Shown here: piece after piece, positions 1-1,191 of the stretch
Layout: every line of letters begins with the position of its first letter
Position numbering within the stretch: position 1 is the first letter of the stretch
Source of the DNA: Escherichia coli
Lineage (GTDB): Bacteria; Pseudomonadota; Gammaproteobacteria; Enterobacterales; Enterobacteriaceae
DNA length: 64,000 nt
Strand: one strand, 5' to 3'
Assembly: GCF_048403405.1 (NCBI RefSeq)
Contig: NZ_CP183129.1
Program-made: the position numbers

Positions 1-1191
1 CAGTGAATCAGAATGAGGATTCAGTGATTCCTGCTGGATGACATACAAACAGGCTAGGGCAGAAGGTGCGCAAGTTCGTAAGGACTAGCACGGCATGACC
101 GCCATTTTTTATACCATCCTGGAGAAGGAAAACGACACCGGAGAAATTGACCATATCCCGATGCTGAAAACCTTTGTCGTGTTTAATGTCGAACAAATTG
201 ATGGCCTCTCACTGACGGCAGATACCGTTGCCCCACAAGCGACGTTTGACGCGTTGCCACAGGCTGAAAATCTGTTCTGTAACAGCGGTGCTAACATCAT
301 TGAGAAAGGACAAAACGCCTTTTTCATGCCATCAACAGATGAGGTTTTGTTACCTGAACGTCGTTTTTTTCCGATGCCGCTAGCTTTTATGCCACGGATC
401 TGCATGAGATTGTTCACTGGAGCGATGGCAAAAGTCGCCTGAACCGCGAAATGAAAGGAAGATTTAGCAGTGAAAATTATGCATTTGAAGAGTTGATCGC
501 CGAGCTGGGAAGCGTGTTCCTGATGGCGGATCTGGGGATTGTCGGATAGGTTCAGCACGAAAGTTATATTGCTTCTTGGCTGAAAGCACTGAAAAACGAT
601 AAGCGCTATATTTTTAAAGCCGCCAGGCAGCATCGAAAGCGCATCGTTATATGATGGATAAGGTCTGAACAGAGGAATAAGACGCCGCAAAGGAATGCGG
701 CCTTAACCTTATTTTTGGATCTGGCAGAGTGACATAGATTTCAATTTCCCTGCGAATGCGGACGGTAAAGAGCCCGCTCATCCTGCAAACTACATTTTTA
801 TACTGTTGATAATAGGGTATTCCTTAGTCATGGTAATAAGGCTCAGAAAGCCATATTTAGCTTTCCATAATGGAATATTATCGCCACCTTGAAGAATTCT
901 TTGTTCCGGTTACAGAATCTGCATTTTTATTGAGAGCAAGGGATTTAACCTGCCACGGCGTGGTCAGATTAAGGATGTGGGCATAGAGCGATTTTTCGGC
1001 CATTAATTTGACGCTGATGCTTACTTTAAATTGTTATTATTTTTTGCCCACTTTTTTAATCTTCCATTCGCGTTGGTATAAGGCGAAGATGTATTAAATG
1101 AGATCATTCGGCCCATCGTCCATTTTTTGTATCATGGTTCACCATACAAAACATCATCAGTTCGTTCATCAATAAGCTTTTGTAGTGGTCA

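What the first reader, a model, noticed from the sequence alone, without database searches (positions are those of the whole stretch)
1..654. Second, decayed ArdC-like copy at the opposite end of the window
An N-terminally truncated, frameshifted ArdC-like remnant lies ~61 kb from the intact ardC and is only moderately similar to it, so it is an old paralogue rather than a recent duplication. It may mark the leading region of a former or adjacent element and so the limits of the present ICE or tandem island array.
Basis: seen in the sequence. Interest (0 to 1): 0.25.

Follow-up and report, generated by a model that had tools for sequence, protein, structure and literature searches.

The report
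Dead ArdC gene from swallowed ICE
The sequence at the window start is a dead copy of an anti-restriction gene (ardC), left over from a second conjugative element that was captured and gutted inside the known Proteus element ICEPm1; it is an ordinary, already annotated pseudogene with an informative history.

Summary
Window 1-668 is the 3' three-quarters of an ArdC-family pseudogene. The whole gene spans window -253..668. Its start codon survives just upstream, so the "N-terminal truncation" is a window-edge artefact. The decay is real: four in-frame stops, two 1-bp deletions and a 21-bp deletion.

All lesions are identical in 13 complete E. coli genomes, ten other assemblies and the Proteus mirabilis and Providencia stuartii representatives. 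RefSeq already annotates it "frameshifted; internal stop".

It is not a decayed duplicate of the intact ardC at 61927-62901 (34% amino-acid identity). It belongs to the ArdC type of HPI/ICEKp1-like conjugative elements (75%). Its closest intact relative (91%) lies in a Morganella-type element at tRNA-Phe, ordered int, nrp siderophore genes, hyp306, AlpA, DUF2857, TraR, virB1-11, T4CP, MobC, CcdBA, ArdC, two TonB receptors.

The window matches both flanks of that element but lacks 16.3 kb of transfer genes, replaced by insertion-sequence debris (811-3662).

So the pseudogene marks a former element nested in the accessory region of the 92.6-kb ICEPm1. It does not mark the limit of the present ICE, whose tRNA-Phe repeat lies 24.7 kb further left, where the neighbouring island begins. 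Low interest.

The parts
1..668 (+). ArdC-family pseudogene, the part inside the window. The whole gene spans window -253..668, with stop codon TGA at 666-668.
   Evidence: Frame translations. PGAP pseudogene annotation in an identical genome. Pfam ArdcN and MPTase-PolyVal on the repaired product. Alignment to intact relatives.
14..16 (+). Premature stop TGA; the intact relative has CGG here.
   Evidence: alignment.
86..88 (+). Premature stop TAG; the intact relative has GAG here.
362..370 (+). T-run holding a 1-bp deletion (loss of C, about 366/367) that shifts the frame.
547..549 (+). Premature stop TAG; the intact relative has GAG here.
624..631 (+). Site of the second 1-bp deletion (loss of C, about 628/629).
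684..701 (.). GC-rich hairpin downstream of the ardC stop (terminator-like), conserved in the intact element.
757..810 (.). Left breakpoint. Homology to the intact nrp-ICE ends here; in the intact element the following genes are ccdA/ccdB.
909..1179 (-). Remnant of an ISL3-like (ISEc53-like) element end with a ClbS/DfsB passenger-gene fragment.
   Evidence: 84.7% identity to ISEc53/ClbS copies. 80.6% nt and 85% aa identity to the ICE backbone ClbS. PGAP partial ClbS.
1189..3662 (-). IS3-family fragment interrupted by an IS110-family element (transposase CDS 1417-2481). Its end abuts the truncated DUF2857 gene.
3665..3778 (-). First 38 codons of an ICEKp-type DUF2857 gene; this is the right breakpoint of the 16.3-kb deletion.
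   Evidence: 63% aa identity to the ICEKp-type DUF2857 N-terminus, with no similarity to the ICEPm1 backbone DUF2857. Homology to L031 resumes at window 3663.
3803..3991 (-). Intact AlpA-family gene of the former element.
   Evidence: 87% aa identity to ICEKp-type AlpA. 97.8% nt identity to the nrp-ICE AlpA. Annotation.
4120..5041 (-). Pseudogene of the 306-aa hypothetical protein that precedes AlpA in ICEKp-type elements (3 stops plus indels).
   Evidence: weak tblastn match.
5213..30979 (-). nrp (yersiniabactin-related) siderophore locus with its divergently transcribed TonB receptor. It is the cargo of the former element, and homology to the intact nrp-ICE ends at 30979.
   Evidence: Annotations. 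99.4% identity to L042 over 17463-30979. 98% identity over 3663-5604.
61927..62901 (+). Intact ardC of the ICEPm1 backbone, lying upstream of the cbtA-like gene, traI and int.

Best explanation
Window 1-668 is the larger part of a non-functional ardC pseudogene. It is the last surviving piece of the transfer module of a second conjugative element, of the HPI(ECOR31)/ICEKp1 type, which carried the nrp siderophore genes.

A roughly 54-kb internal fragment of that element became part of the accessory region of ICEPm1. The fragment ran from DUF417 through ArdC, the mob and virB genes, and AlpA to nrp and its TonB receptor. It included no integrase and no att site.

A 16.3-kb deletion then removed ccdAB, mobC, the coupling protein, virB1-11, traR and most of DUF2857. 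That gap is now occupied by ISL3-like, IS3 and IS110 debris.

ArdC and the 306-aa gene beside AlpA were left without a transfer apparatus to serve, and ICEPm1 has its own ardC. Both decayed by point mutations.

Shown here:
- the lesions;
- the family assignment;
- the synteny and breakpoints against an intact element;
- the fixation of the lesions across genera;
- the ICE boundaries.

Inferred:
- the order of events;
- the role of the insertion sequences in the deletion;
- redundancy as the reason for decay.
For: **Lesions**
- Four in-frame stops, two 1-bp deletions and a 21-bp deletion that removes GMNIMLL from the ssDNA-binding domain.

**Family**
- Pfam ArdcN and MPTase-PolyVal.
- The closest intact relative matches the R388 ArdC structure 6I89 at E 1.6e-66.

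**Origin**
- 75% aa identity to ICEKp-type ArdC, 34% to the ICE's own ArdC, and 91% to the intact P0001 (Morganellaceae).

**Intact syntenic element**
- Order: tRNA-Phe, P4-type int, TonB receptor, nrp, hyp306, AlpA, DUF2857, TraR, virB1-11, T4CP, MobC, CcdBA, ArdC, TonB, TonB, rve', DUF417.

**Homology blocks and breakpoints**
- Window -6685..757(810), 3663..5604 and 17463..30979.
- L031 1942-18272 is missing from the window.

**Other relics**
- AlpA and DUF2857' are of the ICEKp type, not the ICEPm1 backbone type.
- The 306-aa gene is also decayed.

**Relaxed constraint**
- 22 versus 6 polarised substitutions on the pseudogene versus the intact lineage, p = 0.004.
- dN/dS is 0.29, against 0.09-0.15 for the neighbouring TonB receptor genes.

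**Fixation**
- Identical lesions in 13 E. coli genomes and in ten further genomes at 99.8-100%.
- Also present in P. mirabilis ATCC 29906 and Providencia stuartii NCTC11800.

**ICE limits**
- 51-bp tRNA-Phe repeats 92.6 kb apart, matching the published 92.6-kb ICEPm1 with 52-bp repeats and a 'degenerate' module next to the iron-acquisition module (PMC11278526).

**Published architecture**
- In this family the transfer region runs from virB1 to ardC, with ardC last and opposite in orientation (PMC2262945).
Against: - The far (non-integrase) end of the intact Morganella-type element and its second att repeat were not found, so its status as a complete, mobile ICE is inferred from gene content.
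- Identity to the intact element is uneven, 99.4% in nrp but 93-95% around ardC. The sampled intact element is therefore a relative of the donor, or a later recombinant, not the donor itself.
- The IS3 copy seems to lack its outer end, and no target duplications were examined. IS-mediated deletion is plausible but not demonstrated.
- No expression data were available, so residual transcription or a small peptide product cannot be excluded.
Confidence: 0.9

Rival explanations
1. Window-edge artefact: the gene is intact and only looks truncated because the window starts inside it.
For: The 5' 253 nt and the start codon do exist upstream of the window.
Against: Inside the window alone there are three in-frame stops and two frameshifts. 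Upstream there is a further stop and a 21-bp deletion. PGAP flags the gene as frameshifted with an internal stop.
Confidence: 0.01
2. Decayed in-situ duplicate (true paralogue) of the ICE's own ardC at 61927-62901.
For: Both are ArdC-family genes within one ICE.
Against: The two are only 34% identical in amino acids, against 75-91% identity to ArdC of ICEKp-type elements. The flanking genes (TonB receptors, AlpA, DUF2857', nrp) are colinear with an ICEKp-type element and not with the ICEPm1 backbone.
Confidence: 0.02
3. Sequencing or assembly errors in one genome created apparent frameshifts and stops.
For: Homopolymer indels (the T-run at 362-370) are typical sequencing errors.
Against: The same lesions occur at 99.8-100% identity in at least 25 independent assemblies from Escherichia, Proteus and Providencia. 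Four of the lesions are base substitutions and one is a 21-bp deletion.
Confidence: 0.01
4. The remnant marks the edge of the present ICE or of a tandem island array, for example the leading region of an adjacent element.
For: A tandem arrangement at tRNA-Phe does exist: an island with its own P4-type integrase and pap, iuc and sat genes abuts the ICE. In its family, ardC is the last gene of the transfer region.
Against: The tRNA-Phe direct repeats bounding the ICE lie 24.7 kb to the left and about 67 kb to the right of the pseudogene. Replication-module genes of the same ICE (ParA, DnaB, ParB, TopIII, STY4534) lie further left. No att or tRNA fragment occurs near the pseudogene.
Confidence: 0.03
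5. The locus still works in a reduced form, for example a separately translated metalloprotease fragment (ORF 95-442) or the 58-aa N-terminal peptide.
For: Gene callers annotate a 58-aa 'antirestriction protein' and a 115-aa fragment. The sequence is conserved at 99.8-100% among carriers. The HExxH motif is present.
Against: The HExxH motif lies downstream of the first frameshift and is cut off from the C-terminal helices by the TAG at 547-549. The ssDNA-binding domain is broken by two stops and a 7-residue deletion. The high conservation is explained by recent spread of the whole ICE, whose 10-kb flanks are 99.8-100% identical. The lineage shows an accelerated substitution rate.
Confidence: 0.04

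Closest known systems
ArdC of IncW plasmid R388 / pSa (PDB 6I89, 6SNA)
   Same: Same two-domain family: an N-terminal ssDNA-binding ArdcN domain plus a C-terminal zincin metalloprotease with HExxH.
   Different: The window copy is a pseudogene with seven disabling lesions, so no function can be attributed to it. It has an extra ~35-residue N-terminal extension, shared with ICEKp-type ArdC.
ardC at the end of the transfer region of HPI-ECOR31 / ICEKp1 / pMET1 / pCRY (PMC2262945)
   Same: Same ArdC subtype (75-83% aa). Same position and orientation: last gene of the virB-mobB-mobC block and convergent with it. Same partners, AlpA-DUF2857-TraR, at the other end, and a siderophore locus between int and AlpA.
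   Different: In the window the virB/mob block is deleted. The cargo is nrp rather than ybt. The related intact element sits at tRNA-Phe rather than tRNA-Asn and has a divergent mobC/T4CP plus ccdAB.
ICEPm1 of Proteus mirabilis HI4320 (Flannery et al. 2009/2011, as summarised in PMC11278526)
   Same: The window is part of an ICEPm1 copy in E. coli: 92.6 kb, tRNA-Phe direct repeats, nrp, taaP, and a SPI-7/PAPI-1-type backbone. The pseudogene lies in what the literature calls the 'degenerate' accessory module, next to the iron-acquisition module.
   Different: Nothing differs structurally. The papers I could read do not derive these two modules from an ICEKp-type element.
nrp-carrying ICEKp-type element at pheV in Morganella morganii (loci L010, L031, L034, L038, L040, L042)
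   Same: Colinear with the window on both sides of the deletion at 93-99% nt identity. Its ArdC is the closest intact relative (91% aa).
   Different: It keeps the integrase, the tRNA-Phe junction, an intact ArdC, hyp306, full DUF2857 and all virB/mob genes. The window copy lacks or has lost all of these.

Membership tests
ArdC family (anti-restriction / ssDNA-binding metalloprotease) | N-terminal ArdcN ssDNA-binding domain (PF08401) | tested here: met
   On the repaired translation E is 4.7e-23, above the gathering score. The match is weakened by the 7-residue deletion and two stops within the domain.
ArdC family (anti-restriction / ssDNA-binding metalloprotease) | C-terminal zincin-like metallopeptidase domain (PF18818) with HExxH | tested here: met
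   E 4.3e-45. HEIVH is present in the repaired translation.
ArdC family (anti-restriction / ssDNA-binding metalloprotease) | Uninterrupted reading frame encoding both domains (a functional gene) | tested here: not met
   Four stops, two 1-bp deletions and a 21-bp deletion. PGAP labels it a pseudogene.
ArdC family (anti-restriction / ssDNA-binding metalloprotease) | Anti-restriction activity, or protection of incoming ssDNA during conjugation | not testable with these tools
   Requires conjugation or restriction assays.
HPI-ECOR31 / ICEKp1-type ICE (the former element) | AlpA-DUF2857-TraR leader followed by virB1-11, mobB(T4CP)-mobC and a convergent ardC | tested here: inconclusive
   Only AlpA, 38 codons of DUF2857 and the ardC pseudogene remain, all of the ICEKp subtype. 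The 16.3-kb interior is absent from the window but present in the colinear intact element.
HPI-ECOR31 / ICEKp1-type ICE (the former element) | P4-type integrase next to a tRNA gene, with flanking att repeats | tested here: not met
   Homology to the intact element stops at window 30979, before its integrase and tRNA-Phe. No att fragment occurs inside the ICE. The integrase is present only in the intact Morganella-type element.
HPI-ECOR31 / ICEKp1-type ICE (the former element) | Siderophore (ybt-like NRPS/PKS) cargo between integrase and AlpA | tested here: met
   The nrp locus occupies that position both in the window and in the intact element.
ICEPm1 (the present host element) | About 92.6-kb element in tRNA-Phe bounded by ~52-bp direct repeats, with SPI-7/PAPI-1-type replication, conjugation and integration modules plus nrp and taaP | tested here: met
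   A 51-bp perfect repeat occurs at record 1004312-1004362 and 1096879-1096929, a span of 92,618 bp.

The most novel reading that the evidence does not exclude
ICEPm1's 'iron-acquisition' and 'degenerate' modules are together the gutted body of an independent HPI/ICEKp-type conjugative element, one that still exists intact at pheV in Morganella morganii. ICEPm1 itself was assembled from a tandem array of three tRNA-Phe-targeting elements (ICE A, nrp-ICE, ICE B) by two internal deletions.

The trace of this history would be the degenerate pilL2'/TIGR03759' copy at window -10405..-9634. It mirrors the functional copy at 31593-33536 and brackets the whole accessory region.

The first half (captured nrp-ICE) is well supported by my evidence, at about 0.85. 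The three-element accretion route is only consistent with it. The probability given applies to the full statement.
Probability: 0.35. Interest if true: 0.4.

Novelty: already known. Interest (0 to 1): 0.18.

Why it matters
On its own the pseudogene matters little. It is annotated in RefSeq and sits in a module of ICEPm1 already called 'degenerate'.

Its value is as a marker. Together with AlpA and the DUF2857 stub, it shows that the nrp virulence and iron-uptake locus of ICEPm1 arrived as part of a separate, self-transmissible HPI/ICEKp-type element that was then disarmed. This gives a concrete example of one ICE capturing another's cargo.

It also identifies an intact nrp-carrying ICE in Morganella as a second possible vehicle for this siderophore locus.

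Finally, it warns against using ardC remnants as ICE boundary markers.

Tried and rejected
- **Reaching the far side of the intact element, attempt 1.** I walked from its VirB8. One call was wasted on a query one residue short. The corrected query returned only Klebsiella-type ICEKp contexts, because VirB8 is identical there.
- **Attempt 2.** I queried the window's AlpA. All ten places shown were ICEPm1 copies. This was useful for showing fixation of the lesions but not for the walk.
- **Attempt 3.** I looked for a diverged nrp PPTase. Only a 79% homologue turned up, on a contig that ends at a transposase.
- **What worked.** A contig-specific VirB9 fragment, followed by hyp306, the oxidoreductase, the PKS and the MFS transporter.
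- **ssDNA-promoter or oriT-like structure upstream of ardC.** Folding the conserved 285 nt gave z = -0.46, so there is no signal.
- **Sigma-70 promoter scan.** Nothing upstream of the gene.
- **Second att repeat of the intact element.** Not found in L007-L012.
- **Lineage of the pilL2'/TIGR03759' remnant.** It is 92.3% identical to ICEPm2-type copies and 90.3% to ICEPm1's own copy, which is not decisive.
- **Literature.** The original ICEPm1 papers (PMC2772549, PMC3147661) are not held.

Full report
**Where the window comes from**

- Window 1-900 is 99.6-100% identical to 13 of 5,426 complete E. coli genomes.
- In E. coli M24 (NZ_CP080120.1) window position 1 is record position 1,029,069.
- The first 20.9 kb differ from M24 at 6 positions, and the rest is 99.9% identical apart from a few indels.
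- The proteins are shared with Proteus mirabilis.
- The region is an ICEPm1 copy with a SPI-7/PAPI-1-type backbone:
  - replication genes ParA, DnaB, ParB, TopIII and STY4534;
  - a pilL2-to-traG conjugation module;
  - TraI and an integrase;
  - the accessory genes nrp and taaP.
- A perfect 51-bp repeat of the tRNA-Phe 3' end lies at record 1,004,312-1,004,362 and 1,096,879-1,096,929. This bounds 92,618 bp.
- That matches the published 92.6-kb ICEPm1 with 52-bp repeats (PMC11278526).
- Immediately left of the left repeat sits a P4-type integrase followed by pap, iuc and sat genes. A tandem island arrangement at pheV therefore does exist.

**The observation**

- Frames 1-3 of window 1-660 carry pieces of an ArdC-like protein.
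- PGAP annotates the gene in the identical genome as 'ArdC family protein; frameshifted; internal stop' over record 1,028,815-1,029,736, which is window -253..668.
- Alignment with intact homologues shows that the start codon and the first 85 codons lie upstream of the window. The N-terminal truncation is therefore a window-edge effect.
- Measured against the closest intact relative (codon table), the gene carries seven disabling lesions:

| Lesion | Window position |
|---|---|
| TGG>TGA | -78..-76 |
| 21-bp in-frame deletion, removing GMNIMLL from the ssDNA-binding domain | window edge |
| CGG>TGA | 14-16 |
| GAG>TAG | 86-88 |
| 1-bp deletion | about 366/367 |
| GAG>TAG | 547-549 |
| 1-bp deletion | about 628/629 |

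- The repaired product still scores ArdcN at 4.7e-23 and MPTase-PolyVal at 4.3e-45.
- Its nearest intact relative matches the R388 ArdC structure 6I89 at E 1.6e-66.

**Relation to the intact ardC**

- The intact gene at 61927-62901 belongs to the ICEPm1 backbone. It is followed by a cbtA-like gene, DUF1281, traI, int and tRNA-Phe.
- The two products are 34% identical. The pseudogene product is 75% identical to the ArdC of ICEKp-type elements in E. coli.
- The pseudogene is therefore not a decayed duplicate. The two genes come from different ICE families.

**What the pseudogene belonged to**

- In ICEKp-type elements the order is int, cargo, hyp (~308 aa), AlpA, DUF2857, TraR, virB1-11, T4CP, MobC, then ardC in convergent orientation.
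- The pMET1 paper describes the same layout for pMET1, pCRY, HPI-ECOR31 and ICEKp1, with ardC as the last gene and opposite in orientation.
- On the minus strand of the window, reading from nrp, the order is:
  - the nrp PPTase;
  - a decayed copy of the ~306-aa gene (three stops plus indels);
  - an intact AlpA, 87% identical to ICEKp-type AlpA;
  - the first 38 codons of a DUF2857 gene.
- That DUF2857 stub is 63% identical to the ICEKp-type protein and shows no similarity to ICEPm1's own DUF2857.
- Insertion-sequence debris follows, and then the convergent ardC pseudogene.

**The intact counterpart**

- Its contigs show the same two TonB receptors, rve remnant and DUF417 upstream. Downstream lie ccdAB, mobC, a coupling protein and virB11 to virB6.
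- Walking along these contigs gave the complete order: yqgA, tRNA-Phe, P4-type integrase, TonB receptor, the nrp genes (MFS, methyltransferase, NRPS, PKS, oxidoreductase, thioesterase, two ABC transporters, PPTase), hyp306, AlpA, DUF2857, TraR, virB1-11, T4CP, MobC, CcdBA, ArdC, TonB, TonB.
- The chromosomal flank has 52% G+C and is 76% identical to E. coli, which is consistent with Morganella.

**Breakpoints**

| Window range | Identity to the intact element |
|---|---|
| -6685..757 (weakly to 810) | 93-97% |
| 3663..5604 | 98.0% |
| 17463..30979 | 99.4% |

- L031 1942-18272 (16.3 kb) is missing from the window. This stretch holds the rest of DUF2857, traR, virB1-11, the T4CP, mobC and ccdBA.
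- It is replaced by window 811-3662, which consists of:
  - an ISL3-like end with a ClbS passenger fragment (909-1179);
  - an IS3-family fragment;
  - an IS110 element inserted into that IS3 fragment.
- On the right, homology stops 42 bp past the nrp TonB receptor, before the integrase and tRNA-Phe.
- On the left, homology begins inside DUF417.
- The captured fragment therefore has neither an integrase nor att sites. It cannot be an independent island now.

**Age and fixation**

- The pseudogene and 10 kb around it are 99.8-100% identical, with every lesion, in ten further genomes of 3.9-5.3 Mb.
- The same version is present in the species representatives P. mirabilis ATCC 29906 and Providencia stuartii NCTC11800.
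- The decay therefore predates the spread of ICEPm1.
- Using ICEKp-type genes as outgroup, 22 substitutions fall on the pseudogene lineage and 6 on the intact lineage (p = 0.004).
- dN/dS is 0.29, against 0.09-0.15 for the adjacent TonB receptor genes.
- Both results fit relaxed constraint.

**Interpretation**

- Two points need correction:
  - The gene is full-length at the DNA level.
  - It lies deep inside the present ICE (24.7 kb from the left repeat), in what the literature already calls the degenerate module next to the iron-acquisition module.
- The added result is that these two modules form one colinear, gutted HPI/ICEKp-type element, and that an intact relative survives in Morganella.
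- How the fragment entered ICEPm1 is not shown.
- A degenerate pilL2'/TIGR03759' copy at the left border of the accessory region would fit tandem accretion at tRNA-Phe followed by deletions. A test of its lineage was indecisive.

**Verdict**

This is a real feature, correctly recognised as a dead ArdC gene. It is already annotated and of low intrinsic interest. Its boundary-marker interpretation is wrong, and its 'former element' interpretation is right and now documented.

Noticed in passing
L001 9595-10366 (= window -10405..-9634) versus window 31593-31864 and 32971-33536: There is a degenerate, colinear partial copy of the start of the conjugation module (pilL2' and TIGR03759'), 86-92% identical to the functional copy. 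The 41-kb accessory region of ICEPm1 is thus bracketed by a decayed and a live copy of the same backbone stretch. This may be a trace of tandem ICE accretion followed by deletion.
   Followed up: partly
window 55952-56176, 58381-58619 and L001 7760-8000: A repeat of about 230 bp is present three times within the ICE at 94-97% identity, in or near intergenic stretches. The window and strain M24 also differ by small indels around 56,017-56,061.
   Followed up: no
window 3663-5604, 17463-30979 versus -5882..757: Identity between ICEPm1 and the Morganella-type nrp element is very uneven: 99.4% in nrp, 98% near AlpA, and 93-95% around ardC and the TonB receptors. This suggests later recombination or a mosaic donor.
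   Followed up: partly
window 3803-3991 (-) and 4120-5041 (-): The small AlpA-family gene of the former element remains intact in every copy seen. The 306-aa gene just upstream of it is a pseudogene with three stops and indels.
   Followed up: partly
window 5213-28900 versus 31704-54000: There is a strong compositional mosaic inside one ICE: nrp 35.5% G+C, the ardC pseudogene 48%, and the conjugation module and intact ardC 57%.
   Followed up: no
window 62911-63210: A CbtA-family toxin gene lies directly downstream of the intact ardC, followed by a DUF1281 gene. Both are in the relaxase-proximal part of the ICE.
   Followed up: no
L003 27850-29363 (record 1002849-1004362 of NZ_CP080120.1): A second island with its own P4-type integrase and pap, iuc and sat genes abuts the left tRNA-Phe repeat of ICEPm1. 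Its integrase is 53% identical to that of the Morganella-type nrp element. This is a tandem arrangement at pheV in E. coli M24.
   Followed up: partly
L029 (E. coli A28, NZ_CP028747.1 4415821-4458896): Another ICEKp-type element sits at a tRNA-Phe, with a frameshifted integrase and two decayed virB genes. About 16 kb of metallophore-like cargo (IucA/IucC, an opine-dehydrogenase-family gene, a TonB receptor, ABC transporters) and IS remnants lie between ccdAB and ardC.
   Followed up: no
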